Program-made: the position numbers and the translations under genes
Assembly (NCBI GenBank): GCA_040954595.2
Contig: CM082578.2
Coordinates: forward strand, 17,615,912-17,679,911
Reading direction: 5' to 3'
DNA: 64,000 nucleotides
Source of the DNA: Balanoglossus misakiensis
Taxonomy: Eukaryota > Animalia > Hemichordata
Part shown: positions 13,901 to 39,300 of the stretch, in pieces
How the letters are laid out: every line of letters starts with the position of its first letter
Position numbering within the stretch: the first letter of the stretch is position 1
The notes under the pieces: model-generated
What the model saw: the letters and a program-made list of their open reading frames with translations, nothing else
Database searches by the model: none
Told to the model about the DNA's origin: nothing

Positions 13901-14330
13901 TGGTGAGTCGTGTTTTGGGTACATGAGTTCTATGTGTATATTTCAAACTCCTGCCAGGCGGTTATCAAGGCGGTTTCAGAGAGATATTTTCACCTTGATT
14001 AATATTCTCCCAGATTTATTTCACATCTGGAGAAATAGCAAGAATTCAAGTGGTGATAATTTAACCGCTTGACTGGAGACCTCAGATTTTTGTGGCTGCC
14101 TAATGTAGATGTTCATCATCACAATTAGCTTGCTCGGTCGACAAACGTTTCCCGCCCCTTCTTGTTAACCTACAGGCCTACTTTTCCCGAACGACACGCC
14201 GATCAGCGAAGCTACAAAGAAGATACGCCAACCCGGACGGCTTTTGTCAAACCAGTGCGGCGTTCACTTTGCGCGACATTGTCGGCAGCTTGCGTCGTCA
14301 CAACAGAAAGCAACAAAGAAGAAGCAATGA
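10945..14330 (+). CDS. EFCAB12: EF-hand calcium-binding protein, EFCAB12-like
   Basis: Phase-consistent exons 10945-11538, 11748-11843, 12140-12337, 12773-12926, 13138-13457, 13677-13902 and 14176-14330 (TGA). EF-hand pair IADYIHRQRIRLIELFMRVDKNKDWKVNKSQF / VDDLMMTLDTDENEELDYRHF. The N-terminal RKRIIVAPP motif resembles EFCAB12, recalled from memory and not searched. Confidence 0.7.
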
Positions 14331-16520: not shown

Positions 16521-19500
16521 TCATTCTGACTCTTCTTCGTCGCTACTATCAATGTCAATTAATTCTGCCAGCCAGGGGTGGCCGCATTGCAGCAACGCTT
16601 CGCGGAACATGGCCACAGCCTTCTTAGTGTTGGGCAAGTTGTCTATTAAATGCCTCGTTTTGTCTGCGTCTGTTGTGATACTTCGAACGGCGGTGGCTAC
16701 TTGACTGCTTATCACACATTCCTGCTGGAGGAAATCTAAAAGTGGTCCTATACATGCAAGTCCGTCGATGAACTTAAATCTGTTGACAAGAAGGCATCTC
16801 TTTGGTTTGTCGTTTAACACGTTGTACTCCCAGACCTCGGTGAGTTTAACACACTCTGCGGGGATGTGCGTCTCTTTGGCCTCCATAATCCTCTTCAGGG
16901 CGCTGACTTTGTTCTTCAGTGTGCATTCTCGAAGAATCAGTGTGTACTCTTCGTGGGTTATGACCGCTTCTTGCAGCAAGATGTCCAGGCAGTTCTTCAC
17001 AAAGTCACCTGATGTAGAAGACATACACATCCATTACACATCACATGAGCACATTGGCGAGAAAGTCAACGTGCTGTATAAGTTGTATTCAATCAAATAC
17101 TTATAGCCACGTTGCTAAAGATATCACCGAGCTTGCAGATCTTGCAGATCACCTACCTTCACAGAATCCAATATTTTCCCCGTGACTAATCAAAGTCCAC
17201 ATCACAGACATGTGCTCCAGGTCTCGCTTGGCGTCTTTAATGCTTCTACAGAGTCTTTTTCCCGCGCTGCATCCACCGATGTCCCTGATTTCCGGGAAAG
17301 AGACGACCCCTTTCCTGTGCAACAGTCTCCCATAGAAAGTCTCGATAGTTGACGGCTTCTCGCACGAGAGTTCATGAACGCGACTCAGATGATCAACGAG
17401 TTCTCTTGGCAGCTCACCTTTCCCGCTATATTCAAAATAGGCGGCAAAAACCCTGTCATGTCCAGGTTTCCTTGGCTCCTTCACGATGCGATCTATAATG
17501 TCTAAAATGTCCTTGGTAAATGGCTCTGTTTCATTTGCTTTATTTTGAAAAAGCTCAGTCAGCTTTTTGGACCCAATAAGAATGATTCTATCGGCATGGC
17601 CGATTGTCGCAACAAACAACTCAAATTTTTCCTTGTTTGTACATTCTGAGATGTCTATTATTTCTACAACAGTCTTTATCTGACGATGGTGTTGTAAAAA
17701 CTTTGCAAATTGGCGTGCGGCCCTGTCCTGCTTGTGTCTATCCGGTGCGTGAATCAAAGTGATCGTCTTTGGCTCGGCGGGAACAGGTCTTCGGATAAAC
17801 TTCACGTATCCATCTGAAAGATCTGCAAGATGGAGGAAGTCATTAATTGGGGGACAAGCGCTTCTTAGATACAGATTTAATCAACTTGAATTCGCATAGG
17901 TCTAACTGTTCAACAGTGCGGTTAATTTCTAAGATGGTTCGCTGAAACAAAAACAATCGGTGATCTCAGTTTACTACATAGTGCCGCTATTCAAGAGGCA
18001 GACCAACTCACCTGTATCAGCTCCAGTTTCTTTCGCCTCTTCCTCTTCCAGCTTCAGTGTGGCAAGCGTCTTTTCCTCCACGTGATCTGCAGGCAGATTC
18101 TGAGCATCACGGTTTGCATCCACGGTGACGTCACCTGAAACGTGTTGAAAGGACTATGTCTGATTTTTGAGGCTGCTCAGCTATAAATTTAAATATCGCA
18201 CGAGCATCGCAAAAACGTCCTTCCTTAAAGCGATCCAATTGCAAGCAAATGTGCCTGATTTAGAAACTCTAAGCAGTGTCTTCCCTTCTCTTTGGTATGC
18301 AAACAATGTTGGCCGTTTGTTTCATATGACCCGAAATATTTCAACTACTGAATTACTGTATCAGTAGCTAAAGAAAATCCAGAGTGCCCCTGACTGTACC
18401 GATAATTATGGCGGTGTATAATGATGATTGATGTCCTTGTTATTTGAACATTTTTCCCCTGAAGTACTTTGGTGTAGCACGATGTGACCCTTGACACGGA
18501 AATGCTAACTAGTCTTTTCCCTCTCAGACTGTGTGTTTTAGCTGTTTTTAATGCAATCACGTTCGACTAATAGTCCATTAGGTGCTCAAATAAACGTTAC
18601 TATAATGAAACGGACCGGTATTTCTTACTGGAAACACCGTGCACGGACATACTGAAGCTTCTGAATGGATTGTTTATGTGACCTGATAATATGTCTTTTA
18701 AATTGACCTTCCTCTTTGGGGTCACCGTGACTCAACTTCCGAGATTCTTGTCAGCCATGCGTGGTTGTTCTGAAGACCAATGCATGCTTTGCCCAGTCCA
18801 GTATGTATTTGGGTTACTTCCGTGATTTTATTTTTGTTCAGACTGTGCCAAAAAATAAAATGTATGGCGGTGTGCAACGATAGGCCGATTCATGGACTAA
18901 ATTACTCCTTATGGACTATTTCCATGGTCCTCATCAGAGAAAAAAAAACGTTTCTGAAAACATTTGCTTATTCCTAACGTGATGCAAAGTTCGGTGTACA
19001 GCTTATTTTTTTAAAAACTTAATGATATCAAGTTGGATTGAATAAGATGTTGTTGTTTTGTTGCATTGTTTGTACACGATTGTTGCAACAACAAACATTA
19101 TTTTGTAAGAGTAGCAAACAAGAGTCTCAAGTGATGTTCTCCTTTTCCGCTAATTATTTCCTTGTGGCTTCTCTACCCGGAAACTGTTCAAAGTAGGTCA
19201 AAGATGCATATGATCTTGTCGCATGCAGAGTTTTAACGTCACGGCAATCTCATGAGGGGTGAACCATTTGATATGGGCGCGATCTGGATGATTTTTGCAG
19301 AGGAAAACAATCCAGGAGATACCCCTGAAAAAATCGGCCACAGTAGACAAAAGAAAAACAGATGCAAACTGAAGTGGATGCTAATCGAGCACCGGAGGAA
19401 CCTTCGAATTTGGGCTTCTCGTGTCTGTCTTTTTGCAGCGAAACCGATGTTGAAAAATGAAATTCAATATTAAACTTCTACTTATTAAATATACAAAGCT

Positions 19501-19933
19501 TCTCATTTAGCACCTTTTGTGAGACTTTAAAGACAATTGCAATATTGCAATAGTGTTTTCTCAAAATTCTACATCTTAAGGCTATGGAATATGTTAACCA
19601 TAAACTGTACCTGGCTGGTAGTCTCCTACCTTAAGGTGGCTGCATATTTTTTGTTGCAAAAACAGATAGTATGTACATGTAAGCATGACTTAGGGACAAA
19701 ATTTTAGGGAAAAACTGATCATAGCGTAAATAAAAAAAGTACTTACGCTTAGTTGTCGAATTTTAATCAAAATTCCGCGCTCCCTTTTCGTTGGGTATGA
19801 ACAGAGCGGAACTTAAACTAGTACAGTAATGATTAGGACAAGACAATGGCATGCTACATCTCCACAAAATGATGCCTCAAGACGCGTCTGTTTTTTCGTA
19901 CTCACCTGTAGTCGGTGTGTCAAGAGTTGCCAT
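16521..19933 (-). CDS. Cytoplasmic SEFIR + tandem CARD-like adaptor, gene X (Act1/CIKS-like analogue)
   Basis: Exons 19933-19906 (MATLDTPTT), 18134-18012, 17822-17157 (SEFIR-like ITLIHAPD..FAKFL, ADRIILIGSK, RVFAAYFEYS) and 17008-16521 (CARD-like CLDILLQEAVITHEEY; LLVNRFKFIDGL..LLDFLQQECVIS..KTRHLIDNLP..FREALLQCGHPWLAELI). All introns are phase 1. No signal peptide or TM. The first exon is the least certain. Confidence 0.8.
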
Positions 19934-22900
19934 CCCCTTGTATAGGGTCTTGCTGAAGAAGTGTGTGAATCAAAATGCTGGAAGACGAGATTTGGCATAC
20001 ATGCGTCACATTTCACTTTTCAATGGCAAGGGCTGTCAGAGGTGCGAGTCTGTATGTTTTGATATGATACAGGGAAGTAACTGGCAACCAGTGGCTTTGT
20101 CGAGGAGTCGGTATATACCCAGCGACTACAAGTTCACTGAAGCAGCTGACGTCGGCCCCTGAAGTGTATCCAACAATACCCGCTCGTCGTTTGTACCTCT
20201 CTCACACCGGGGGCTCTGCCGCGGCTCTCAGACTACATTTATCACTGACGTTTGGCCACTATCGGTAATTCCCGAGGTCTATATATAACAATGAGCTTTG
20301 TTTTCCAACAGTTCCTGGTTGGACTTTCAACACTGGAGTCGCACTTCTGGTGCACGGAAATGCGTTAAAATGACAATGTCTTTTTTGTAAACCGTGGTGT
20401 GAACTGGGTCCTATTCAAGATCTATTTTCCGGGTATTTCCGAAGACAGATACGAACTGATCATGTTGATTGCGTGAATAATTAGTTTAAGATGTACGGAC
20501 GCGCTCGAACTGTCTGTACGTTGCCTAGAAACCAATCAGAAGGAACCGAGTGGTAAGAAAACCACCCGGAAGCCTTTCCGTATAAGCGCGGATGATATTC
20601 TGAACAACATCTCTGTGAGATTTACTTTGGCAGCTTGATTTCCGATATCATACGAGGCTTCACTTTCAAACAGTATACGCATTTCTCCGGTCGTCATTTC
20701 ATCATGCTGGGACCTATATGGAATAGAACGACAATAATGTAACTGAAGCACAGAACAGGGAATTTTGGCCTGAAGTCCCATGGCCCTTTAACGTATCCGC
20801 AATCGATTCTGCAAAACAATTGAAGTCGTGACTATTCGTTATCCGATGTATATCAGGTTCCAATTTCCCAGGTACCTTTGTACTTGTTTGTATCGCCACA
20901 TGCATTGTCTCGGATGATCACAGGTGTGGCTGTGGGCCAACCTTCGTGTCATCGTCATGGAGACGGAAACCTAAGAGTTCTGATGTTTGACAGGCAGTTT
21001 TTCCGACAATTTACCAGGCGTTAGAACAAACTTCACGAATATTGAAGGTTCAACAGAACATAATTTAAGTACTTCTTTACTTTGTGGCCTCCGGGGGTCA
21101 CCTTTTTGATCGGACCCGTTCCCCCTTACATTTAATTTTTTATAACAAACATGGAATATGCGCGTATCAATCCCTAAAATATGCAGTACACCGTCTCAAA
21201 GGTTGGTGTAATCTCAGCTGTGATTGGCTAGTGATCACTGGCTAAATATGCATAGGTAATACTTTACATACTGATCCGCAGTTTCTGTAAATAGGCCAAA
21301 GGTAAATCATTCTTTTCAGGCATACGCACCAGACAACGCAGTGCGTGGGATATGATTTCAGGATGAGTTTATGCTTAGTGCCAAATTCTTCACCTTTCTG
21401 ATGATGACCAACCGGGTCTTCTGTCACGTGGTGTGCGGTTGAAGGCAGTTTGTGCCGTTTCCCCTCAAGTCGGGACCGAATAATAGTTGCTGCCGAAACC
21501 GGAGGTTCGTTCAGGGGTGAACTTTTGTTGTGCGACGAATGGCATGGCCCGGATGTGGCTCTGCGAATTATTCCAGAAACAACATTGAAATACATTTTCT
21601 TTGCGATGTGCAATCTTCTTCAAGTTGGAAACATGCTGTTTCCGATTTTTCATCCTAATCAAAGCTCTCGTTCGGAGTAAAATTAACATTTAGTGCAAGT
21701 GGTTGTGTTCGGAATAAAATTTATCAATTCTTAAAAATACTGAATTTCAACGCGAGGAAATGTGGAAGGGCTTTGCTCTGAGTGTTTGTCAACAAACTAA
21801 TGCTTCGGTCGTGCGGAATTCCATAAATAGCTTACTTTTCTTGTGTTTATTGACTTGCGATATATATAGACCCATAAAGACTTTTGCAAATAAAATATCG
21901 ACAATGGTATATACCATTCGGTGTTTTCCCGGCATTCAAACAGACTATCCACTTCTGAAATCGGAAGTGAACATAAAGACGTTTTTTGAACATCGACAGT
22001 CAAGGAGCTGTCTGTGTTTTTGTCCTGACAAAAAGTGACATGACCCGGATTGGACCTGACCGCTTGTTGAGTTTACGGAAGGCTAAATATAACTTCAAGT
22101 CTTCGTGTAAGTTTTTATTTTAACTCGTGGGCGTTTTTCAGTGGTTCCCGAAAACTCAACAAAATTGTTGCAAGGTTCGTGCGCAGGTGAACTTTTGTTA
22201 TAGAGAGAGGGACGTGACCCGGACGTGACTTTCACCAAAATATGTTTAAAAAAAATAAATGCCTTAAATCCAAGACGTAAAAACTCCCTAGGACCAACAA
22301 CTAAGCAAACGTTTTGAATTGGGAGAAAGTAATACTTAAAATCCATTTGATGTTGTGGTTCATAAAAATCTCAAAATGTCCTGTTTTTATTAACATAACT
22401 CGATGAAAACACGAGAGATAAGCCATTTGAATTTCTTGAAGGCTCGAGCCAATAGTTCTCCATAATATCACTTGCTCAAAAAAATGTTGTTTGGAGTTTG
22501 CAATATGGGAATTGGTTTTGGTATCGATAGTTGGAGACGACGCGGGCATTCAATACAATGCTTTACTACACTGCAGTAAAACGGTGGCGTCAACATCGTT
22601 GGATCTAAGAAAAGTGCTCGGTTGGAAACATTTGAATGCAATCATTTTAATTTAATTTCGCGCCATAGCCTGTTGTCACCAACCAACAGGAACTTTGCTT
22701 TTTGCGTGCTATTTTTAGAACGGTTGGGGCGTTGAAACGTTGTTGTTTTTTCGACAAGGAAGTCAAAGTATCGCAGCATATTAAGATGGCGGAAGAGGCA
22801 AGGTTGTTTTTGTGCTTGGCACAAACACATTAAAACGCCACGCTGAACAGGTTTCTGCAAAACAACAGGACTACAACCAAGCCGGAATGGCCACAGTTAC

Positions 22901-23075
22901 AAAACAAGAATTCAAACCCGATATATAGGCCGCGTCCGTCTCTCCGTGCTGTGCGCTATACAAGCGGCGAATATACCTCTTTTGATCCGGATCTCGCGAG
23001 CTTCAAAAGCTGCTTGAAGTTTCCAAGGCTTGGGATTCTCAGACATCACTCGCGGTGGAAGACAGCGACATCGAC

Positions 23076-24847
23076 ATGGCATGTGCAGGTAAGTGTGGAA
23101 TTGTAGTTAGGCCAGATGTAACTTCACAGAGAACCAATGCAGGTTGACGTACATGCCACCTTGACACCTGTTTGATTCTGTCAACCTCTTACAATACCCG
23201 TACCTTAGAATACCGACCGTCACTAATAAGCGAAATCTCGACCCCCAGATAGCGTGCGTCACTTCTAACATACTTTATATGCAAGCAGATGTTTTTGCTA
23301 ATGAAGTCTGCGCTTAAATGTGACTTCAGCAATGTGTAACGTGATAATGAATTGGGCTATATCACTCGACGCAGCGCGTTGGAGTTTGAGAACGTCACAA
23401 ATGTGGGTGGGCTGCCTTTATAATAATCGCGCACAATCGCGTATGTCAGAGAGAGGTTTCAGTGCTGGTAAATTTCCGATCACCGTTGGTTATATTTGTT
23501 TGAGGAAAAAGTTTGATTTTATAATTATTTTTTTAACGTGTTTATTTCCGCTACACAGGTCTAAACCAGCATGCGTACCAAGATCGAGACAGGCATGGGA
23601 CAGACTCTACCGCTGCCTTCGTTTTTTTACCGGACGACTCTGGACAAACGGCCATAGTCCATGCATTTTGTGATCTGATCTCACTTTTTGCCAACGAAAG
23701 ATCTACTATCAAGAAATTTAACCTGTCAAAATTAAATGACACGCAATATGCAAACGACGCGATCAGGGACTTCAATGAATCCGACAAAATCGTGTTGGTC
23801 ACATCCAAATCATTGAGGAGACTTTGGTATCAACGTGTCGACGCGGATTATTTTATTGCGGCTCTGAAACAAAGACTATCTCAAGATCCCAATAATGTCT
23901 TCGAAATATATTTCGAGTACATCAGTAACGACGAGCCGACCAAGAAAATAGCGAACACCCGTCACAAGATTTGCCCCTTTCAAACAGCAACGATAGCAGA
24001 ATTCTGTGCCGTGCTAAACCCCTTCACAGACAGAAGTTCAATGACCCACATTGAGAACACGGTCTGCAGTACACAGCAATGGAAGAAATTTGTAGACAGT
24101 ATTCGCGAACTACAGACGCGGGAAATACGCATGTCTATACAACATGTCAGAAAAACTGGATTTTCGCCATGTAAGTATAGAATTATCTCCATCCAGCAAC
24201 ATTTTCAGCGTCTGCCATACATGATTATAAATTCATGCTATTAGAATTATAGCTCTATAATTAAGTTTGTTTGGTCTTGTTTACAGGTGACATAGACTTT
24301 TGCTGTTTGGATGTCCTGCTTCAGCACAAGGTCATAACCGAAGTCGAACTCCAAATGGTCAGGCAGCAAAATAAACCACGGAAAAAGTTGCTCGCTGTTC
24401 GGCATACCATCGCGGGGAAGGTGAACATCTTCCCCGAATACCAGAAACTGGTTGACGTGTGGTTAGACAACATCGGGAGAAAATCCCACGCCCTTTTCGT
24501 GAACAAACGGCTCGTTCTCATTGATAATATCGGACATGACGTCAAGCGAATGGTGGATTACCTCATACAGGAAAACGTCATCACCGTTCACGCTGGCGAG
24601 GTCATTACCATGGGAACAGCCCAAACCAGCGCCAGACAGCTGTTGGACGAGTTGCCAAAAAGCAAGCGGGCGTTAGTGGCTTTCTGTGACGCATTGGAAA
24701 TGTGTAATCCGGGCCTTGCTAAACACCTGGACCTTAGAACGTGGATGAATGATTATGACACTGCGGAGAACAGTGGACCAGCATGTCTTCCTGTAGACAA
24801 CGGTAACTACGCACAACGTGTCTGTCTCTCTGTCCGTCCGTCTGTCT

Positions 24848-24878
<31 letters not shown>

Positions 24879-26630
24879 TGTATGTATGTCTGCCTGTCTG
24901 GCTATAATGCCATTTGATATTTGCTGTTAATATACTTTAATTCAATGTTTCTGTTCCTTGTTTATAGATGATGTGGATGGCAGATGCATCGTCATGTCAT
25001 CTATCGCCGATCGAGACTCTGGTTTGGATGTTGAAGACACTAGCGTGAGCGTGCCAACTATTCAAAAACCCACAGCCACAGAACAACTTGGATCTCCAGC
25101 ACTCCTGAGCAAATCTTCATGTCAAAGACAAAGAAGACATCGCCAATACTCTCTTTCCGGTACCCAAGTCCGGTACCAAAGTTGGGAGAGCACTGCCACT
25201 GACAGTGGTTACTGTGCAGAACACGTGGATGGCGACGATTGCTGTAGCGAGAATGGCGACGACGGTGGACTTTTTCAGCCAAACAAACTGACATACATGT
25301 ATGCTGGTAAGTGTAGTGTGGTGTGGTGTGGTTCTGTGCTGTCCTGTGATCTAATTATGTCATCTAATTCAATCTAATGTAAGCTTCACTACAGACGTGT
25401 TTTAATTGGTGTTATGGTGTCATTGAAGGTTTACAACCAGTGGATTCGCTGGAGGTGCTCAGCGTGACGTCAGATTCCGTGCACATGCGTTGGTCTGTTT
25501 CGCCGCACAACACTTCGACATCGCACCGACTCGGCTATCGTGTCACGTGCCTCCAGCTGAGCGGTCAGAGCAAGAACAGAGTGCGCTTAACGGAAGTGCT
25601 GGAATCTCCCTCTTCTACGTTGTCCTGGAAACGAGGTTGTCTGGCCGCTGGTGACTACCGCATTTCAGTGTCCGTGTTGTACGGTGAAAACAGTGGTGAT
25701 CAGCCTTGTCCCAGCGAGGCAAAATGGACAAACGTCAGGATTGGCGGCAGTGAGTACATCAACGCATTGTATTTTGAGGGACAGAGTAAATATCGGTTGT
25801 GCATCTCGATAACCAAGAGACCGACAAAGTCATTTCGCCGCAAAATCTCGGGGCCTGGCGGGTCCACGACACAGAAAGAAAATGATATTGAACATGTTTT
25901 CTCTAGAAACACATCTCTCCAAACAAGAGGCAAACGATGGATGATCGAAGTATTCGTACATGTTTTTTTCCAGATAAGCTTGGAGTGTTTGGTAAAGTTT
26001 TCCGTAAGAAATTGTCACTCTCCAAGGAAAGTTCGGATGACAGTTACAAAGGTAAAAATCTAACTATAGTTTTACATTCTCCTTCATATATATACGGGCT
26101 GCATTGTATGTTAAAATCACAGGGAAACTTTTAATGTGCCGGAGAATCATTCAAGTGGGACTGGACCTTCAATGATCACTGCGTCTCACGTGACTAGACA
26201 GGCAAGACGCGTCACGTAGATAGTGACCAATGAGCACTGAGGCAGGGTACCGACCAAGACTAGAACATTCAACACATTGGGATTTGCCTTATTTTCTCGT
26301 ACAGTACTCGTCAACAATGTGACTCCTGGTCGTGAAAGCAGTAAATCGTCAGTCAAGACGTTTGAAGTCTTGGAAGATGAAAGCATCGGTTCCAACGCAC
26401 ATCATGACGTTGGAGAGGTGAAACCCGACAAAACCGAAGTTGTCATGGCTGCCATTCTACCTGATGCCGAGGAGAGAGCATGGACCAACCCGAAATCGAC
26501 GACTCGCAGTCGGTGCTACGCAATGAGTGGACCGATGGAAAGACCAACATTTACCAGCAGCAGAAGAGAGGGGCTTACTATACGGTGCCAAGAGAAGTCA
26601 TCAGATTCTGTCTGTACCACCAGTCTGTAA
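23076..26630 (+). CDS. Cytoplasmic SEFIR + tandem CARD-like + DSG-motif linker + FnIII protein, gene Y
   Basis: Exons 23076-23088 (MACA), 23559-24170 (divergent SEFIR AFVFLPDD..IVHAFCDLI, SDKIVLVTSKSL, NVFEIYFEY), 24287-24802 (CARD-like x2: LDVLLQHKVITEVE; MVDYLIQENVIT..ARQLLDELP..AFCDAL), 24968-25306, 25429-25749 (FnIII PVDSLEVLSVTSDSVHMRW..GYRVTC..YRISVSVLY), 25974-26051 and 26305-26630. All introns are phase 1. Confidence 0.8.
24819..24900. repeat. (TCTG/TCCG/TATG)n compound microsatellite
   Basis: tctgtccgtccgtctgtctg... in the intron after the CARD exon of gene Y. It explains the VCLSVRPSVCLS tail of the raw ORF. Confidence 0.9.
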
Positions 26631-28274
26631 ACCTATGGGTGGGAAACGTTTTTTTCCGTGACATATATGGCTTTGATTTGCTACAGGAGAACCCTGAACA
26701 TTTCCTACTTCAACGCAGAAACTATTTACCTCAAATGAGAGCCGATGTTTTAGGCCAAATAGGCCTACTGGTGTCAAACATCGACATTTTCTGCAAATGG
26801 TGGGTCAGTGGCGTGCAAATGTCCATATTTGGTGGGGTTGAGGGGTCAAGAGACACGCTAGATCTTGAGATGGTGGTAGAACTTAACCACCATCAAAACC
26901 AGTAAGCGCTGAAACATATATTTACAGTTTACACCAGAGCCCTTAATAGTTCCAATTCACCGCCTCACGACAGACACTACCTGTAATGTTAAATTTAACA
27001 CTGTTGGGGGTCACTCACAAAACAAATGGGTCAAGCACGCGGAAGTGTCACTGAAAGAAGGACAACTTTTGGCACGAGAAATATTATACCGTGGCAAAAT
27101 ACAGTGGGTGTAGATGATTGCGAGCGTAGATAAGAAGGTTGATTTATTATTTTTTATTTACAATGGCTATTTGTACTTAGGTACAGAATATGTAGTTTAA
27201 GGGCTAGTCAGCATAAAATTAACCAAAGTCCGAATTCCTCCTACTGGTAACAGGCACAATGGCAGATGAGATCACGTGATGTGCAAACCCACATAAATAC
27301 TTTGAAATCGCTCATGAAAATGGTTCTTAAATCTCCATTGGCTATTTTCAATTTGTTAGTATTTTTGTTCGTTTAAACAAATACGATTTCTTAATCCCTA
27401 TAGCATGATGAAATGTCGAGTATTTGACCTAACTACGGTTCCTCCAAGGTGAAGGGACTGTGGCCTATAGCAGAAAAACAAGAAACTACAGTTAACACAC
27501 AGCTCAATGTCAATGTAAAGCGGTGTTATACACAGAAAGATAACACTCTGTTTCAGTCGGACAAAGTAATAAAACCTTCTGAGACATACCACTGATTTTG
27601 ATAAAAAGCAGAAGAATCTTTAATGGCTGAGTGATAGCACACGTCACTCATTACCAATGAGTAAATAACAGTGTCCTGATTATATTTTTTTCGAAGTTGA
27701 CTTGGCAGATGCATGTAACGTTAGGAATAATGTTCTTGGATATCAATGTCCCTGAAATATCAACACCCTGTATTCTGGTCTGATTAAATTTGGACAGTTG
27801 TGTCTAGATCCTGTTTCTTCTACACCACTTGCATATTAGTGAAGTTCTTGGACGCAAAAAGCACCATGTAATTTCTCCATTAACATCGTGATGGACAGCC
27901 AGCGTGTCCTTCTGTTTGTCCAGGAAATGGTCCTGGGTATTGGCAAAGGTTAAGTGACGTGAACCCGATCACGTGTGCGTGTACTGATGAAATGCACGGC
28001 TGCGCATTTCTCTGGCAATGTCAAATGGAAAATACAAGCAGTCTCTATCGCTGTAATTCGTAAGCTGAAAATGTTTGTAAAAATAGCAACTGTATTCGTG
28101 TTGGGTCCGTTTATTGCGCGCGTATTGTAAAAAAAAACCCAAAACGCTCAGTCGACATTTGTGCGTCGTCCAATATGTTGTAAATTTTACAGAGTACGGG
28201 GACCCGTGACAAAACAAGATCCTGTTATCGCGTGAGCTCATGTCCTGGCACCGTCTGTACAAACGGCATTTCTG

Positions 28275-31200
28275 TCAGAGATACGTGTCTTGTTCGTCGT
28301 CAGACGCACACTGATCAAAAACTCCGCTGTCTCTTTCTCGTTTGCCTGCATGTGGGACATTGTCCATTTTTTCTTCCAAGCAGTGGTTGACATGAATGAA
28401 TACGCCCGCTTCCCGGACATTCCCGGGAGAGGGTTCTTCGTCTGTGGAAAGAAACAATCAGATAAACCGTGAGAACACAAATAATGACTAAAGAATTTAA
28501 TAGGGAAAATAGACTAACATGGAACCCAAATATTGTTCACGTGAATGCGTTTCGTTTGAAAATCTGTGATTGGATATATACGATTTCCCCATGGAAACAG
28601 TAGTTAAATTTGCTTTAATGACCGTATACATAATTAATGGTCAGCCACAAACATAGATGTGAAAATGTACATTTTGAACAATTTGTTTTAGGCGTTTATT
28701 TTCCCAAGTACTTTTGGCTTTTGAGACAATTTCCAGTATTGTTTTGTTCATATTGTATGTGTGTATTCTGGCGCCTGGTTTCGAATGTCTTTTTGGTTTT
28801 CATACCCAAATACAACTCACTTAAATTTGGAATCCGAATAACGCAAATTGTAATACCCGCATTGTCTAAATAAAACGACTTAACCACTTATTTAATAAAA
28901 GTGATATTTATTACTTCATGATGAAACGTTTCATCATCAAGAAAACCACAGAAGCTGACGCACTCCACGATCAAAATCAACATAAACGGGACAATTATAT
29001 TCTATTGGCCACTTCAACTAGGGAAAACCTTGAAACGATTTATCAAGTTCAGATGATCCAATACTAATACAAGTTATCATCACCTTTGATGTCATGGCCG
29101 ATCTGTTGTGTTGTGAGTGAAGGGTCCTCCTCAACACTTTCTGTAACTTGCTTCGGTTTTCTATTCGGCTTCGCCCAAGCACTCACCGCGTTGGCCCGTG
29201 GGCGAGACCGCACGCGCATAGAGTTGGACCGGATCACGCTGAGTCTTTTACCGTACACAGAGGTTGGGCGACTCGTAGTCCTGGTCTCGACGACCCCCTT
29301 GTCTGTACACTGTGAGCTGTGAAGCGAAGTTGGTCCGACTTTCTCGGCTTCCGCGCTGTTTCCTCCGAGTCGTGCGCCGTTTCCTCGGCAGGTTCCCTTG
29401 TCACCGATGATGTCGCCGCGATTGTCGGCAACTACAATCGATTGTCGAACGATGCTCCGCCTGTGAACCGCTGTACCCCCGGATTTAGACACTCGGCTGA
29501 CCAGTTGACACTTGCCTATAACCATAAAAAATACAGCGGATTGCTACCAAGGGTGTTGAGTGACACGTGGATCGCAATTAACCTGTATTGACAGCACCTA
29601 TGCAAGATGCTAAAGAAAGTCGATACATGTATTTATTTGTGTATTCATGAAAATAAATAGATTTATCATATGAATCCAATCACATGAATCATAATCCGAA
29701 TCCGAAATTAACTGTTTGCTCCCACACCACCATCCATCCATCCATCCGTCCATCCATTCATGTCATCCATCCATCCATCCATCCACCCACCAATCCTACC
29801 ATTCTGTTCGTCACGGGCCACACGTTACGTACACATTTGTCAGCCTACCAAACGGTGAATTCTTGGCGAAGCCACCAGTCCGATATTAATGGCAACCCAC
29901 CCGCAGTCAATCAAGTACTTCAAGGATTAGCGACAACTTACTGTGCCCGACGGTGACATGTGTCCACTTGGCGGGGCTGAGTATATTTTGCTTTTCACCC
30001 TCGTACATCACCGACACTGAAATACGGTATTCACCCCGGGACAGGCATCCTCGTTCCCAGCTCTTAATAGAAGGGGACTTCATCACATCGCAGATAGGTG
30101 GCGAGGTATTCTTTCCCCCGATGCGGAGACACGTCACGTGGTACCCGGTGTGATTTGATATCGTTTCCGGCAGAGACCACCGTATGCGCACAGAATTCGA
30201 CGTCACGTTCAACACTTCAAGAGACTCGACTGGTTGGAATCCTGTAATTTTGATATTTGAAAGATTTACTTCGCTATAAGTTGTGGACAGATGTTTCATC
30301 GTTGTTTGAGAAAACTCCCAGAATGCACATGGATATTGCCCCTAATCAGCCCCCTGTAACAGGCGATCTTCATATACCATAACTTGGATCTGTTTACAAA
30401 AATATATATATATAACACAACTATTTGTTAAACACCACAAAAAATTAATGTATCCCCGAAAACGTAAAAGCAATTAGAAGACTCATTTTCAATTTAGTTT
30501 CTTGGCCGCCGAAAGGGTAATATCTTTAGAAACGTATGTTATATCGGTGGTGGCAAAATATGGGGTTTGTTTTAATCTCCCTCGCTTCCTGAAATTCTAC
30601 CCGCAATAAGTTGGTAAAATTGGGGTTAACGTACAGTGTACCAGGAAGTGCGTTAGAATGTTGTAACATGTGTCTATGAGGTGGGTTCTATAACAGGTGA
30701 GAGACTATGTTGTACAAGGAACCTGATCTGTTTATTAAGAAGGCGCATGCCTACCGGGAAATGACACTGGAACAAAGAGAGACTCCTCGCTGAGCTTTGA
30801 ATTCAACTTCGGTTTCTGAGCATCATCAGACTTGTCTGTCGCGGATACATGTTTTTCGCCATCGTCAGGGTCATGGTCATCCTCTGAACTCGGAGACTCG
30901 TTATCGTCTTCGTCGAATTCTTTGCATAATTTGCTGTATTCTTCTTGTGAGACGGTCACTTTTACACGAACGTCTCTCCCCTTGGCAATTCTCTTCACAT
31001 CTTCGTTAATCAGGAGTTTTTGGAGGATCTCTTCCAATTCGCCTGTTTGACTGTCTTTATACAACCGCTGCAAACCCGGTTTGTTCTTGACTTTCAAAAA
31101 CAAGAGTATGCAGCCGATTTTGAGATCGCTGATGTCGACCGAGTACTTTTTGTCCAGCGTAGCGTCGTGAGTTAAGCGTAGCCGACCTTTAACTATGTAC

Positions 31201-34200
31201 TCTTCGATATCTTTCACTGTGGATTCGCCGTCGCTTGAATCTTCGCCCGAATCTGAATCCAATTGAACTATCTCTACCACCACCCTCAGGGTTTTCGGCT
31301 TGCCACCTGGAAATGAAGAGAAAAGTGTCAAGCGATAATATACAATGATAATAGTCAAACAGAGATATACACAGACAGATTTTAAAACAAGAAACCCTAT
31401 AAACTGGCATCACTACATGCCTGACCTCTACACATGGACGAGTGTGAGTAACCAAACCATTATACCATATGAAATTTACCTGTTGTCTTCGCGTACCGTA
31501 CCGCTACCGTTTTTTGACTTCCTGAAAAAATAAGAAAAAATACCTGCATCATTTCCATTCATCATCCCTAAAGCAGTTTATCATAAAATAATTTACAATG
31601 TGGTCCACATAATCTCCAGCTTTTTGTTCCTGCATTGAGTTTAGAACTACATGATTATAGTTTTTTGCGTCGAATTCAGTACAAAGCGTACTACTAGTAT
31701 ATTCGAATAACATCCTAATGAGTGTGCATTGAACCTACCTGCCTGGTGATCAGGTGTGATCGACTTTTCGGCAGATTCCAATAGTTCAAACAGATGCGGA
31801 TAAGGATCCCTAAGAGATTCTTTAAATTTCTCATAGACAGCATCGGTTGGCGGGAGTTCACTCAAAAGGCGGCGGGCTTTACCGCGCATGGTCGGCTCGG
31901 CCATGATGACGTCATACGCCGAACGACTAATGGCGTCTTCTTGCAAGAGGTGGTCTAACACGTACTTCACTTGTAAATCCTGAACAATTTTAGTCAAATT
32001 CTGTCTCACGGGACCAACATAGTCTTTAGTTGCTAGTTGTCTGTAATGTTCCAACAAATCGGCATTTTCCAGATCCAATCTTCCCCCATCCGCTGTGAGC
32101 ACATTTGTTAACTTGTTCACTTTGTTGAAGAAAACCTTCTCTTCCAAGATGCCATCATAATACTTCTTCTTAATGACTCCTTTTTCATACAGCGCGTCCA
32201 AATAACCATCAAAGTCCGCTGAAATAAGGAAAGGAATTATGTGAAAATTCTTTACTGTGTTGTCCCTAAAAGTGCCCTTAACAGCTTACTCACTGAGGCT
32301 ATGAGCACAACACCACACACCATATCACACACGTGTAGATATTTTGATCACCTCTAAGCTACCGTGCACTATCTGTACAAACCTGGACAAAGGGCCCCGT
32401 GGGTTTCCGTCCATTCTGGCTCCCCACTCTCCGTAAAACAGGCAGAATCATGCTCAACGACATTGGTGCTTTTGCCCTTCCGCGGGAATTTTTTGCTGAT
32501 TCTTTTCCGGTCATGCGCACTGGAGCGTCGTCTGCTCGTGTAGCGACGTGTGACGGTGCTGAACCCACCAAAAGAAATCGCTTTCCGAGTTTTAACACCT
32601 TCGCCCAAGACGTCGATACCCGAGTCTCTGTGTGAATATTGCCAGTCTGTCTCGTTCTCCAGGCCGCTGTTCTTATCTGTTGGTCAAAAGAGTTGATTTT
32701 ATTATCATATTGGTTAACATACTCAGTCATACCGCCAGTCTCAGATAATCACTGTGACATTTTGGATACCAATGACAACAGTAATGTAAACTCATACACA
32801 GAAATCACAAACGTTGTAATTCAAACATGCACATATACGCAGATTCACAAATAAAACTCGATGCAGCTTAACTAAATTCGGCCCATAAGACTAAAAATTG
32901 TAATGTTGGTCTACGGTTTACCTTTAGTGGGACCATTTGTACCTCCACCGGTCGTGACACTGGCCGCTTGACAACCTGTAGCCCCCTCCACAATCCCAGA
33001 GTCGCGGTCTTTGTTTGGACATTTCATTTCAAGGCTTGGTTCTGGTTCTGTTGAGGAATCGGTTTTCAAAGGGGAGCCCGTTTAGTATTTCTCATCGAGA
33101 TCGCTGTTTTCTTATATGCAAATTCCTTCTACCGTGGTGTTTAAGTATATTGCGGTATTTGCATTTCCTACCTGACTTGGAAAGTCCCTGTGAGTCAGTG
33201 TCCAAGACTACAAAGGCTTCCACAATAATTCAGACATCGGCTCAACTTCCGCAAAGTCGGTCAACTGTGACTACCCTTGCCACAGTAGCCATGTTTTGAC
33301 CACGAAGGAGGAACTTAAAAGTTTCAACTCACTACGATCAGCAACTTTAACAATAATTTGGGACTCAAGAAATGTTTAAAAAAATAATACTAGTATTTGC
33401 CGTCAGTTTTTAAAACCCAAAATAATTCTACTATCATGATGACAGACTTGAAGTTAAATTGTAAGCTCACAAGACGAAAAGAGAGGCTCGTGATATGGTG
33501 TGTCGTGTCCCCCATAAAAATAGTTTGTTTATCAGCCACTATAAGCCATAGGTGACTGCTCTTTCTGAATTATTGGTCACGTGATAATGACGTCACTCTT
33601 TACAGTTGCTTCTTTCCTCCTGAGAAGGAAATGTTTAGATTCATTCACACACCATCATTTGACGTCAAGTGTGACGAGCACTTTCCTCGTGATCTATATT
33701 GAACCTGTCAGAACAGTGCTTGGCTCTTTACACACTTTGGGACACTTACTGTCTCTTTGCAAACATTAATACACTCACGCAGTACACACAGATTGCATAA
33801 TTTCGAGCGTGGTTTCACTGCCCTGGTAAGTTAGCAGTTTTTTTCATACGCTACTGCACGTAATCATTTAACGCTGGGAAAGTGACTATCACCGAGTACA
33901 ACAAGCATTGTGTCTATGTCATACAGAACTAAAATGGGTAGAAGACAATTGCGACATTTTGTCCACAAACGACAAGATATTGAAAGAGGAAGTAAAGCGT
34001 TGACCGGTGGACTATTGACGACAGCGCAATTGTCTTCCTACAATGCCATTTTACATCACAGAAGAATAGCCGTCTTTGCAGTCGCATATGCCATGACGTT
34101 GCACCATTTTACTGTGATCAGCTGAATTCTTTGACGGCGTTTGTCGATGAGTAATCGACTACTACTTCCCCATTTTAGCATCGTCCAGATAACACCGCTT

Positions 34201-34817
34201 TATTGTTGTGTTCATGTTGACTTTTCGGAATATACGATGTCAAATTTATAACTGTTATAATATCGCGCCCTTTAGTTATTGTTTAACAACGGCATATGAC
34301 GCCACGTTAAAAAGTTTCTTGGCAACGAAAGACAATTGCACGACGAAGTGGCACTGCCGGTAGCTGAAGCGGGTATTATGGTATATTTTGGTCTTCGGAA
34401 ATTGTGCTTCCATCTCAACGGGGCATTATTAAGCCTGTCACCAACACGATTCCCAACACATATAAGGCTTAGCCTGCACGGCTGGCTATTGCAAATTCAA
34501 CTGTAGTGGCTCCAAACAGGTTATCACTTATACGGTAAATAAATCATATGCTACATCTCGTGGTACACTCGCCCTTGGCTGTTGGTTACCGTTTAATTTT
34601 GCTTCTGTGCGATATACGTCTCACCGGCACAGAAAGACAGCATAATTATTGATAGGGGCCCCGGACCAGACCCTCTGCAACTCAGATCCCATCCGAGGTA
34701 AAGAGAAGTTTTTTTCCAAAGAAAGCTGGTCTCAAAACTGTTACCTGTTGGTGCAAATCACGGCAACTTACCTTCAGACCGGTCTGTATTGCTGTCGGCA
34801 CCAACGATGTCTGTCAT
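28275..34817 (-). CDS. Cytoplasmic DSG-motif + tandem CARD-like + TRADD-N-like + FnIII protein, gene Z (no SEFIR seen)
   Basis: Exons 34817-34772 ([15 protein letters not shown]), ~33207-33172, 33047-32922, 32676-32383, 32218-31739 (CARD-like x2: [54 protein letters not shown]), 31521-31480, 31306-30755, 30241-29942 (FnIII), 29515-29084 (or read-through to a stop at 29064) and 28441-28275. All introns are phase 1. The 5' exons are less certain. Confidence 0.75.
29729..29792. repeat. (CCAT)n microsatellite
   Basis: catccatccatccatccgtccatcc... in an intron of gene Z. Confidence 0.9.
30755..31306 (-). CDS. Exon of gene Z encoding a TRADD-N-like domain
   Basis: [55 protein letters not shown] fits the G-S/C-I-x-L..L..L..D..G-x-L..L..LI..V.EEY pattern of TRADD-like N-terminal domains found in invertebrate death-fold proteins. 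Recognised by eye. Confidence 0.65.
33179..33188 (-). promoter_or_regulatory. Canonical NF-kappaB site GGGACTTTCC in the 5' part of gene Z
   Basis: + strand GGAAAGTCCC is an exact match to the classical kappaB decamer. It overlaps a predicted small exon. Confidence 0.35.
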
Positions 34818-36353: not shown

Positions 36354-39300
36354 TCACGTGTTCAAACCACTATTTTGAGTATTGCAAATCGTGGACTGTT
36401 CTAAATTCAGCTTCATTGCGAAGTTACTGGAGACTGTTGATGCAATGCTGCGATTGTCCGAGTCCCCGTGATATGCAAAGTCTGCATTATTTGGGGCGCC
36501 CTCAACAGGACATGTGACATCACAAGTATCTGTTGGTTCAATGCGGACCGAGTGTTCGTGCGCATCACCGGCTTGTTGGAGATGCATTGCGTTCAGACTT
36601 TCTGGAAACTGAACGAATGTCGGTGGGTCATCAGAGAGTTGTGGCGACGAACATTCTGAAAAGTATCCCGTGTCGGGTTGACTTGGCGGGACGTGGTATT
36701 CAACGGGTGTGGCAACTCCGTTACACCGATGTGGTTTTTCTGCGTACTGCATCTCGTGAGAATCACCGGGACCTCGACACTGTGGCCGACTCGGCGTGTT
36801 TTCATCCACCCCAAACGAGTCGGTCAACAGTGCAGTACCTGCACTATGGTTTCTATCTGCTGTGAGATTATTATTTAAGATCGTGTGTCCAATTATTCCG
36901 TTTTGCGCGGCTTCAAGTCGTACATCAAGGTCGTCGCACCTGGGATTATCAAACCAGTCAGGGCAGTTACCCACGTGAGTTTTCACTTTTCCGATGGTGG
37001 CCAGCAAACCCTTTCCCTCGGAGGTGTTGTTAAGAAGATTCTTGAATCCCTCCACCTTGCGATGACCTCCGGCTGACCCCAGAGAAAGATTTCGGAGATA
37101 AATGTACAACTCTTCAAGATCTTTCGGCACTTTAAATGACTTACTTGAGATGTATTTTGCTACATCCGGGATATACTTGGCTTCGGAATACCCCGGTATA
37201 TTGAAGTGAACGTTGATGTACTTCTTGAGACGCTCGGAGTTGGAACTGAGGTCGGCTCGCATGACGCTCAACGCCACCGAAAACAGGTAATTGTCTGCCT
37301 GGTCTGAGTTGAGTCTGTGCGTCTCTTCGTCTGGTGATGTGGATGAATTCTCGCTCTGCGTTCCCCTGGAAGCGATGACGACAATTTTGTCCGCTCGATT
37401 CATTTGATCTATGACCCAGTCTGTCACGCTTACTGCAACTCTGCTCGATTCCCAGTAGTCGAAGACGACCTTGCAGCAAAGCACAATTTCCAGGAATACA
37501 GCGAAACTCTGCACCAGATCCATGTGCAGATCAGAATCCTTGGTGTACAGCAGGAGAACAGATGGGTTTGCTATTCCTGGACAATAAAATTAAACCAGAA
37601 AAAAAGGTTGATATCAAAAACATTAGTTCCAATGCAACACCAATCACGATATAGACTGGCGTTTCTCGATCCAAATACATGCATTTGGGGTTTATTTCCT
37701 TCAGCCTGTTGTAGTCTTTAATGTTGGCACAACCATAGACAGTTGCTAAATCATCTGTCAATGAATTGTAAAGTCATAATTGCAACCAAGGAATAATTCC
37801 ACTGACCTTCGATGTCATGTCTCTGTTGATCATTCAACCTAGAATCCGGTACTGCGATTGGTAGCGCTAAAAGTTGGAAGGAGAGAAAATACCCAGATTT
37901 TTAGATCTAACTATAGAATGAACAAATTGTTCAACAACCGTGATGATATGAGAGAGCTATAGAGCGGTAATTGTTAATTTTTAATGAGAAATTATCATCG
38001 CATAGACTAAAATTAAGACTTTGTAAGCTAGAACCTTGAAAATGTTTGACTTTGTAGGCTGTATAACGTAAGAACCACGATTTTTCGGAAAGAACCACGG
38101 CTATGCATGAAACTGCCTATCTAAGAACATGTACGTTACCAATTATAAAAGAAAATGAATCAGATCAATAACGGTTACACAGTAAGGTGCATGTCTGTGA
38201 GGAAAATGGCAAATAAATACTCGTATTTCTTTTTTTCAAACGGTTCAGCATTTCAACATAACTTAATTGAACCAACAATGTACAAACAAAGCGCTTTAAC
38301 ACGGGCCCGTTATTTCGACAGTTGGTATAATGTATACTTACGTTTTTGGCGAAACTTCCAATAACACACCGCTGCGACAAGTATAAGGCAAAGCGCACCA
38401 AACACGCCAGTAGGAGCGGCTATAATCTTTCCCGGATCTGTACCGGGACCTGTGTCGGAAGAGATCAAGTACAGAAAATAAAATGTTGTCCAGTAAAATC
38501 GCACCTGAACGATGGTAATTTTAAAGCTAGTCGATATGAGACAAGAAATCGGTTCAAATCGCTCAAAGTTTATTTTTTCAGCTATCCACACTGACGTCTC
38601 CAAGTCAGAAATAAACACCATCGTAGTCTTTTCCTACTTATTGAATATTTGCGCGATTAATTTAAGCAAAAAGGGGGGAATTTGACTCACCACCACCTAA
38701 CAGGATACAGATTCCATCACGGTAGGCGTGACCAGTGGAACAACTGCAGTAATACGCATGCTCGGTTCGAACGCAGTCTCCCATCACACACGGATCATGC
38801 AAACAGTGGTCCTCTGCAATGAAAGAAAATAAAATAGTTTAGGTGAGTTTTTAGAGTGTGCTTAATAGCCGAAGTTGAGCAGGAAACGTTAGAATCGTAA
38901 CAAGCAGGTTGGGTGAAAACAGGTATACATGTACATGTACATTGTTGTCCCGCCACAAGATGGCAAAAGATGGTCATGCGGTAGTAAGAGAAGGAATGAC
39001 TGAAGCTATTTTAGCGCCTAAATACACTTCAATATGGACATAAAGCTTCCGTTGGGGTATATAGTGAAACTGTATATAATGATCAAGTTGCTTGCCTTTG
39101 CATGTGTAATCTTCGAAATAGTACCCGTATGTACAGTTGCACGTGTAGTGCGTGGCATTTACCGACGCACAGGTGTGGTTAGCACCGCATGGCTCAGATA
39201 GGCATACGTCTCTGTCTGCAATCAAAGGGAAATGTACTGCTTGAGCTAATGGGGTCAATATCAATAACCCTCATACCAGGTCACTTTGTAGAAAACACAC

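What the first reader, a model, noticed from the sequence alone, without database searches (positions are those of the whole stretch)
16521..34817. Three adjacent paralogs assembled from shuffled phase-1 exon modules
Seen: every inferred intron in X, Y and Z is phase 1. The tandem-CARD exon (starting GDF/CDI/ADF) is shared by all three, SEFIR by X and Y, a clearly homologous FnIII exon (G[LF]QPV[DE]SLEVL[SN]VTS..GY[RH]VTCL..W[KE]RGCL..YRISVSV..AKWT) by Y and Z, and TRADD-N-like by Z only. The genes alternate in orientation (-,+,-). Inference: combinatorial exon shuffling after inverted duplication. Any internal exon could also be skipped in frame to give many isoforms.
Basis: partly seen in the sequence, partly recalled or inferred. 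Interest (0 to 1): 0.75.

Follow-up and report, generated by a model that had tools for sequence, protein, structure and literature searches.

The report
Chimeric gene among SEFIR–CARD immune adaptors
Three neighbouring acorn-worm genes, set among IL-17-receptor genes, are predicted to encode cell-interior signalling adaptors built from frame-compatible exons, and the middle gene is likely a chimera whose front half comes from one neighbour's lineage and whose back half comes from the other's.

Summary
X(-), Y(+) and Z(-) model as intact genes (434, 734, 812 aa) with 17 of 17 GT-AG introns in phase 1, one Y exon being added here. Domains: X SEFIR–CARD–CARD; Y SEFIR–CARD–CARD–linker–FnIII–tail; Z linker–CARD–CARD–TRADD-N-like–FnIII–tail. 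No RNA was available, but Ptychodera flava has collinear orthologs of all three, and X- and Z-like genes occur in Glandiceps and Saccoglossus, so the set is old and stable, not freely shuffling. Y's CARD exon groups with the SEFIR genes (100/100), yet its FnIII is Z-type: in 10 of 10 Y×Z pairs FnIII similarity exceeds CARD similarity (0.31 vs 0.08), against 0.32 vs 0.32 in 11 other pairs. Y is therefore most likely a fusion of a SEFIR–CARD gene with an inverted copy of Z's back half. The FnIII topology itself is unresolved. The SEFIR exon has the IL-17RA-type C-terminal extension, so it likely came from a receptor. Receptor-derived SEFIR–CARD adaptors were not found in print. Function and domain-skipping isoforms are untested.

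The parts
19906..19933 (-). Gene X exon 1 (start codon, phase-1 exit)
   Evidence: donor best; Glandiceps X proteins also begin MAT
18012..18134 (-). Gene X exon 2, acidic linker, 1-1
   Evidence: end matches P. flava X
17157..17822 (-). Gene X SEFIR exon with receptor-type C-terminal extension, 1-1 (second phase-1 acceptor 9 nt inside)
   Evidence: Pfam 29.1 bits; 46-47% to P. flava and Glandiceps X
16521..17008 (-). Gene X terminal tandem-CARD exon
   Evidence: Pfam 60.6 bits, 2 stretches; 55% to P. flava X
23076..23088 (+). Gene Y candidate first coding exon (uncertain)
   Evidence: strong donor; no homolog support
23559..24170 (+). Gene Y SEFIR exon, 1-1
   Evidence: 45% to P. flava Y; model matches IL-17RA SEFIR 4NUX, Z 15.2
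24287..24802 (+). Gene Y tandem-CARD exon, 1-1, SEFIR-gene lineage
   Evidence: Pfam 53.5 bits; tree
24968..25306 (+). Gene Y linker exon with two DSG-hydrophobic motifs, 1-1; likely homolog of Z's pre-CARD exon
   Evidence: motifs; alignment to Z linkers not significant in 9 of 10 pairs
25429..25749 (+). Gene Y FnIII exon, 1-1, Z lineage
   Evidence: 50-52% aa and 67% nt to Z FnIII, 20-21% to the FnIII of Saccoglossus SEFIR genes
25974..26051 (+). Gene Y basic mini-exon, 1-1 (found here by an intron scan)
   Evidence: matches P. flava Y after FnIII
26305..26630 (+). Gene Y terminal exon with the R-x-x-A-hydrophobic-S tail motif shared with Z types
34772..34817 (-). Gene Z exon 1 (candidate start)
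   Evidence: donor best
32922..33047 (-). Gene Z exon 2, RDSG motif, 1-1
32383..32676 (-). Gene Z exon 3, RDSG and basic linker ending in hydrophobic-C-P, 1-1
   Evidence: same end in 5 of 5 Z types
31739..32218 (-). Gene Z tandem-CARD exon, 1-1, Z lineage
   Evidence: Pfam 66.5 bits; 67% to P. flava Z, 39% to Saccoglossus Z
31480..31521 (-). Gene Z mini-exon, 1-1
   Evidence: matches P. flava Z
30755..31306 (-). Gene Z TRADD-N-like exon with acidic tail, 1-1
   Evidence: Pfam 23.5 vs cut-off 23.7; fold tied with TRADD-N 1F2H, Z 5.9
29942..30241 (-). Gene Z FnIII exon, 1-1
29084..29515 (-). Gene Z tail exon, 1-1
   Evidence: 38% over 87 aa to P. flava Z
28275..28441 (-). Gene Z terminal exon (DSGVFD motif, ends DTYL as in P. 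flava Z)
36354..37589 (-). Neighbouring IL-17-receptor-like gene, frame holding the terminal SEFIR exon (context; likely donor type)
   Evidence: Pfam 77.1 bits; phase-1 acceptor
46402..47715 (-). Second neighbouring IL-17-receptor-like SEFIR frame (context)
   Evidence: Pfam 67.6 bits
1758..2747 (-). IL-17-receptor-like SEFIR frame (context)
   Evidence: Pfam 102.7 bits
360..1256 (+). IL-17-receptor-like SEFIR frame (context)
   Evidence: Pfam 46.3 bits

Best explanation
X, Y and Z are predicted cytoplasmic tandem-CARD adaptors of two old acorn-worm lineages (SEFIR–CARD–CARD and linker–CARD–CARD–TRADD-N–FnIII), and Y is likely a chimera that joined the front of a SEFIR-type gene to an inverted copy of the back of a Z-type gene. 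Shown: the domain content, the orthologs, and the opposite affinities of Y's CARD and FnIII exons. Inferred: a SEFIR–CARD gene read into the inverted Z copy, and because every intron is phase 1 the copy's own CARD and TRADD-N exons could drop out without a frameshift; this happened before the split from P. flava. Inferred too: the SEFIR exon is a receptor's cytoplasmic exon freed from its ectodomain. Likely function: X and Y would dock on IL-17-receptor SEFIR assemblies and relay or dampen the signal through CARD–CARD contacts (to caspases or to Z); Z would act as a CARD scaffold with a TRADD-N switch. No binding was tested.
For: Orthologs with the same architectures on one 47.3-Mb P. flava contig with near-consecutive accessions (XP_070559422/3 Z, 425 Y, 427 X, 429 a fourth SEFIR–CARD gene). 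CARD tree of 13 rows: SEFIR type vs Z type 100/100; a Y+Z clade is rejected (lnL 60.1 lower; with all Z types 12.4 lower, p-AU 0.029). Identity of Y to window/P. flava Z against Z to other Z types: CARD 0.23 vs 0.34 (difference CI -0.18 to -0.04), FnIII 0.49 vs 0.36 (CI +0.05 to +0.21); Y stem 2.22 in CARD, 0.24 in FnIII. Pairwise scores without a multiple alignment: Y×Z 0.08 CARD vs 0.31 FnIII, FnIII higher in 10 of 10; other pairs 0.32 vs 0.32, 5 of 11. Z-type motifs recur in Y: hydrophobic-C-P exon end before CARD in 5 of 5 Z types and before FnIII in P. flava Y; tail motif in 2 of 2 Y and 3 of 5 Z types, 0 of 6 other SEFIR types; DSG motifs in 2 of 2 Y and 5 of 5 Z, 1 of 6 others. SEFIR model aligns to IL-17RA over residues 14-193 but to ACT1 only over 4-156; adaptor and receptor profiles find each other; 4 of 4 receptor SEFIR exons start in phase 1. 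No clear membrane segment in X, Y or Z (max 19-residue hydropathy 1.09-1.28).
Against: The FnIII tree is unresolved: neither Y+Saccoglossus-SEFIR-gene FnIII (p-AU 0.39) nor Y+Z (0.42) is rejected, so the case rests on distances, not topology. Unlinked branch lengths also beat linked ones without Y (lnL gain 12.9 for 6 parameters, against 41.1 for 10 with Y), so rates vary between domains anyway. Linker and tail homology is motif-level only: 1 of 10 linker pairs reached p 0.022 and 0 of 6 tail pairs p<0.05; motifs were chosen after seeing the sequences, and window Y lacks the C-P end. Two Saccoglossus genes already have SEFIR–CARD–CARD–FnIII, so that architecture predates or parallels Y. Adaptor SEFIRs form their own clade apart from the four window receptors, and no CIKS sequence was in the tree. 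No RNA, no genomic DNA of relatives, no functional data.
Confidence: 0.62

Rival explanations
1. Y is an ordinary SEFIR–CARD–CARD–FnIII duplicate whose FnIII exon alone was overwritten long ago by gene conversion from its inverted neighbour Z, or replaced by a single copied exon.
For: Saccoglossus has SEFIR–CARD–CARD–FnIII genes. DNA similarity of Y and Z is confined to the FnIII exon. An exon-limited 96% match between two receptor paralogs in the same window shows that such exchange can occur here.
Against: The Saccoglossus SEFIR-gene FnIII is only 16-25% identical to the Z type, a poor substrate for conversion. Z-type motifs lie on both sides of Y's FnIII. No sign of recent conversion: Y FnIII is closer to P. 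flava Y (63%) than to window Z (52%), third positions 46% identical.
Confidence: 0.2
2. Plain duplication and differential loss from one long ancestor (SEFIR–CARD–CARD–TRADD-N–FnIII–tail); the FnIII similarity reflects stronger constraint on FnIII and a burst of change in Z's CARD exon.
For: Domain order is collinear in all three genes. A second P. flava Z-type gene lacks TRADD-N and the fourth SEFIR gene lacks FnIII, so losses are common. The FnIII topology tests reject nothing.
Against: FnIII is not the more conserved domain: 63 vs 64% between Y orthologs, 53 vs 70% between Z orthologs, 0.32 vs 0.32 over 11 pairs. The CARD split predates Saccoglossus, yet Y's FnIII is closer to Z's than Saccoglossus Z's is (52 vs 28%). 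No protein with both SEFIR and TRADD-N was among the 11 distinct full-length relatives examined.
Confidence: 0.13
3. Ongoing combinatorial shuffling plus in-frame exon skipping generates many architectures and isoforms.
For: 17 of 17 introns in phase 1; copy number and C-terminal parts differ between species; one 12-residue in-frame isoform difference in Glandiceps X.
Against: The three architectures are unchanged between this species and P. flava; SEFIR and CARD stay together in 8 of 8 proteins; no domain-skipping isoform among the cluster members listed, although 90% clusters could hide them.
Confidence: 0.05

Closest known systems
CIKS/ACT1 (TRAF3IP2), the IL-17 receptor adaptor
   Same: Cytoplasmic protein pairing a SEFIR domain with a death-fold domain in its ancestral form (PMC11087794, section 9 and introduction read).
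   Different: CIKS is Death–middle region with U-box and TRAF sites–C-terminal SEFIR and mostly single-copy; X and Y have SEFIR first, then two CARDs, are multi-copy, and carry the IL-17RA-type extension after SEFIR.
IL-17 receptors (IL-17RA SEFIR, PDB 4NUX; assembly 9OT1)
   Same: Best fold match for the SEFIR exon (Z 15.2, rmsd 3.2, 163 aligned); phase-1 start of the exon; physical neighbours.
   Different: No ectodomain or membrane segment; SEFIR exon is internal (1-1); FnIII lies after the CARDs and would be intracellular.
Invertebrate TRADD-N expansions (Kaur et al. 2021, PMC8195603, sections 11 and 12 read)
   Same: Z has death-fold domains, then a single TRADD-N between globular domains; hemichordates are listed with 22 copies of the DEDD2 clade.
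   Different: Z uses tandem CARDs where DED is usual, has FnIII rather than an enzymatic effector behind, and is conserved across three families. The text has no SEFIR or FN3 mention; its source data were not seen.
1-1 phase exon shuffling in lancelets (Huang et al. 2014, PMC4284660, passages read; disputed in part by Banyai and Patthy 2016, PMC4967905, abstract and opening read)
   Same: Domain exons in symmetric 1-1 phase; about 28% of unshuffled and 40-51% of shuffled exons are 1-1 there.
   Different: Here one traceable old event in a hemichordate, backed by an ortholog, not a genome-wide rate; likely a neighbour fusion, not a transposon-carried exon.

Membership tests
CIKS/ACT1 adaptors | SEFIR domain | tested here: met
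   Pfam for X; fold for Y
CIKS/ACT1 adaptors | SEFIR at the C-terminus, Death domain (if kept) at the N-terminus | tested here: not met
   SEFIR precedes two CARDs in X, Y and 6 relatives
CIKS/ACT1 adaptors | Middle region with U-box and TRAF sites | tested here: inconclusive
   no U-box hit; TRAF6-like pattern hits not shared with orthologs; divergent sites could be missed
CIKS/ACT1 adaptors | SEFIR groups with CIKS in a tree | not tested
   no CIKS sequence was fetched
CIKS/ACT1 adaptors | Binds IL-17 receptor SEFIR | not testable with these tools
   needs bench work; the complex predictor was unavailable
IL-17 receptors | Signal peptide, ectodomain and membrane helix before SEFIR | tested here: not met
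   short hydrophilic N-termini, max hydropathy 1.09-1.28; orthologs agree
IL-17 receptors | SEFIR with C-terminal extension | tested here: met
   aligned to 4NUX over model 14-193; sequence alignment with window receptors
TRADD-N superfamily proteins (gene Z) | TRADD-like_N profile match and ferredoxin-like TRADD-N fold | tested here: inconclusive
   23.5 bits vs cut-off 23.7, E 5e-5; 1F2H tied at the top, Z 5.9, rmsd 3.9, 104 aligned, among unrelated ferredoxin folds; Foldseek rank 17
TRADD-N superfamily proteins (gene Z) | Single copy between a death-fold domain and another globular domain | tested here: met
   CARD–CARD before, FnIII after, in 4 of 5 Z types
Class 1-1 shuffled exon modules | Domain on one exon with phase-1 introns on both sides | tested here: met
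   models; not RNA-confirmed; X's CARD exon is terminal
Class 1-1 shuffled exon modules | Exon history differs from that of the rest of the gene | tested here: met
   met for Y by distances and the CARD tree; FnIII topology alone inconclusive; not met for SEFIR vs CARD
Beta-TrCP phosphodegron proteins (recalled consensus DSGxxS) | DSGxx[S/T] at the repeated DSG motifs | tested here: not met
   0 of 5 DSG-hydrophobic motifs in window Y and Z fit; 2 of 20 over all 13 proteins

The most novel reading that the evidence does not exclude
Acorn worms built their own family of IL-17-receptor adaptors by cutting a receptor's cytoplasmic SEFIR exon loose and wiring it to tandem CARDs, linking IL-17 signalling straight to CARD and caspase machinery in place of or beside CIKS; Y is a dated example of a new pathway node made by fusing two neighbouring adaptors.
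Probability: 0.35. Interest if true: 0.72.

Novelty: new variant of a known kind. Interest (0 to 1): 0.52.

Why it matters
Exon shuffling in invertebrate immune genes is often claimed from gene models that may be wrong; here a chimeric origin has an intact ortholog in a second species and a measurable discordance between exons. The SEFIR–CARD–CARD architecture gives a testable candidate for a second kind of IL-17-receptor adaptor in ambulacrarians, where echinoderms are reported to lack CIKS (PMC11087794), and would tie IL-17 signalling to CARD-based death or inflammation pathways.

Tried and rejected
No whole genome is held. Complex prediction of X SEFIR with a receptor SEFIR was not available: no verdict. 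ESM Atlas: no usable hit for P. flava Z; the X SEFIR query did not complete. Word-based homolog searches were insensitive: the FnIII profile found only P. flava Y and one unrelated protein and missed the Z orthologs; the SEFIR–CARD profile found only its first row; absence of Y type in Glandiceps and Saccoglossus among the 150 of 472 hits listed is therefore weak. PDB sequence search with P. flava Y: nothing; profiles hit CARDs only, closest cIAP1, Apaf-1, RAIDD. Rejected: ongoing Y-Z conversion; in-frame retention of the intron after Y's FnIII (224 nt by the coordinates); classic beta-TrCP degrons; conserved TRAF6 sites. Literature: no paper held all of hemichordate+SEFIR+CARD or SEFIR+CARD domain+Saccoglossus; one search listed two genome papers on a ctenophore and a sponge (listing only). 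The Saccoglossus immune-challenge paper has no SEFIR or IL-17 mention and its one held supplement lacks the Z-type accession. Supplements of PMC8195603 and PMC11087794 were not seen and may list these proteins. Earlier scan findings: none.
Full report
Setting. The window is animal DNA with four IL-17-receptor-like SEFIR frames around the finding (Pfam 46-103 bits). The closest relatives of the three genes come from the acorn worms Ptychodera flava, Glandiceps talaboti and Saccoglossus kowalevskii, so the organism is an enteropneust hemichordate; identities of 45-67% to P. flava show that it is another species.

Observation. Exon models give X (minus, 19933-16521, 4 exons, 434 aa), Y (plus, 23076-26630, 7 exons, 734 aa) and Z (minus, 34817-28275, 9 exons, 812 aa), without internal stops; 17 of 17 introns are GT-AG and phase 1. 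Since such models are partly circular, three checks were made. The chosen site was best or tied within 45 nt at 28 of 32 edges under a simple score of my own. Junctions beside domains agree with the P. flava proteins. A scan of all introns found two more candidates open in phase 1, both multiples of three, one of which matches P. flava Y and was added. At a 28-50% phase-1 rate, even 8 independent junctions would all be phase 1 with probability 4e-5 to 4e-3, and receptor ectodomain exons next door have mixed phases. No RNA run was listed.

Conservation. A profile of the three tandem-CARD exons found 472 proteins at E up to 0.001, of which 150 were listed; the best single-stretch, full-length matches were hemichordate proteins. 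P. flava has Z, Y, X, a fourth SEFIR–CARD gene (W) and a second Z type lacking TRADD-N, all on one 47.3-Mb contig with close accession numbers; order and orientation there could not be read. Glandiceps has two X-type genes and a Z type on one contig. Saccoglossus has two SEFIR–CARD–CARD–FnIII genes on one contig and a Z type with all of Z's domains. The architectures are thus old (P. flava and Schizocardium split over 370 Mya, PMC11175523, passage seen; that Saccoglossus branches earlier is recalled).

Per-exon test. The CARD tree of 13 rows splits SEFIR-type genes (X, Y, W, Glandiceps X, two Saccoglossus genes) from Z types at 100/100 and rejects Y+Z. Near-identical isoforms and the second Glandiceps X were left out. 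Y's FnIII, however, is Z type: 52% to window Z, 29-52% to all Z types, 20-21% to the FnIII of the Saccoglossus SEFIR genes. Bootstrap differences have opposite signs for CARD and FnIII, and Y's stem is 2.22 in CARD but 0.24 in FnIII. Without a multiple alignment, FnIII beats CARD in 10 of 10 Y×Z pairs (0.31 vs 0.08) and in 5 of 11 other pairs (0.32 vs 0.32), so FnIII is not simply the more conserved domain; these pairs are not independent. Against: the FnIII tree has no starred branch and AU tests reject neither grouping, and domain rates also differ among Z types alone.

Extent of the borrowed part. Z-type marks flank Y's FnIII: DSG-hydrophobic motifs in the linker (2 each in both Y proteins, shuffle p 0.001 and 0.007), a hydrophobic-C-P exon end that precedes CARD in 5 of 5 Z types and FnIII in P. 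flava Y, and a tail motif in both Y and 3 of 5 Z types but none of 6 other SEFIR types. Whole-linker and tail alignments are not significant and the motifs were picked after inspection. Y and Z lie tail to tail, 1644 bases between stop codons, linker–FnIII–tail facing tail–FnIII–TRADD-N–CARD–linker. The simplest history is an inverted copy of a Z-type gene behind a W-like SEFIR–CARD gene, read-through, and loss of the copy's CARD and TRADD-N exons, which phase 1 permits. Single-exon conversion remains a rival; plain duplication and loss fits the distances poorly.

Origin of the SEFIR exon and function. The Y model matches IL-17RA (4NUX) best, Z 15.2 over residues 14-193, while ACT1 aligns only to 156; the extension also aligns with the window's receptors, whose SEFIR exons all start in phase 1. 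A receptor's cytoplasmic exon turned into an internal 1-1 module is the likely source, though no CIKS was in the tree. IL-17 receptors recruit CIKS through SEFIR–SEFIR contacts, ancestral CIKS is Death–middle–SEFIR, and echinoderms lack it (PMC11087794, first part, section 9 and passages read; CARD does not occur in its main text). X and Y would therefore dock on receptor SEFIR assemblies and pass the signal on, or damp it, by CARD contacts; Z fits the death-fold–TRADD-N pattern described for marine invertebrates (PMC8195603). All of this is inference.

Verdict. Real feature. Shuffling is supported as one old chimeric event in Y, not as a combinatorial system; isoform diversity is unshown. 1-1 module shuffling is known (PMC4284660); receptor-type SEFIR–CARD–CARD adaptors were not found in the searches made. 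New variant of a known kind, interest 0.52.

Noticed in passing
window 41879-42047 and 56000-56168 (minus): One exon of two IL-17-receptor-like paralogs is 96% identical in DNA, ending at the splice donor with unalignable introns, while their other exons are mostly 40-65% identical in protein: likely exon-limited gene conversion.
   Followed up: partly
window 38691-39210, 48646-49657, 52155-52286, 3385-3552 (minus): The receptor-like genes carry EGF-like exons (read by eye, no Pfam call) before the membrane segment, in differing numbers; the three with called edges are 1-1, in ectodomains of mixed phase.
   Followed up: partly
window Z and Y linkers; P0022: Repeated DSG-hydrophobic motifs (7 in Saccoglossus Z, about 0.1 expected), mostly RDSG; not the strict DSGxxS degron; could be kinase, ligase or caspase sites.
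   Followed up: partly
window 28275-28290 (minus): Z ends in DTYL here and in P. flava, which fits a recalled class I PDZ-binding pattern.
   Followed up: no
window 25750-26063 (plus): The FnIII frame of Y stays open for about 100 codons past its weak donor, and the first part aligns with P. flava Z past its FnIII; probably chance, possibly a relic.
   Followed up: partly
P0004 residues 6-25: P. flava Z has a 10-residue unit twice in tandem near its N-terminus, as a duplicated mini-exon would give.
   Followed up: no
window 10930-14072 (plus): Three open frames of 153-223 codons without a Pfam match above cut-off, likely exons of an unrelated gene between the receptor at 1758-2747 and X.
   Followed up: partly
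window 19934-23075: X and Y are head to head with about 3.1 kb between the modelled starts and may share a promoter.
   Followed up: no
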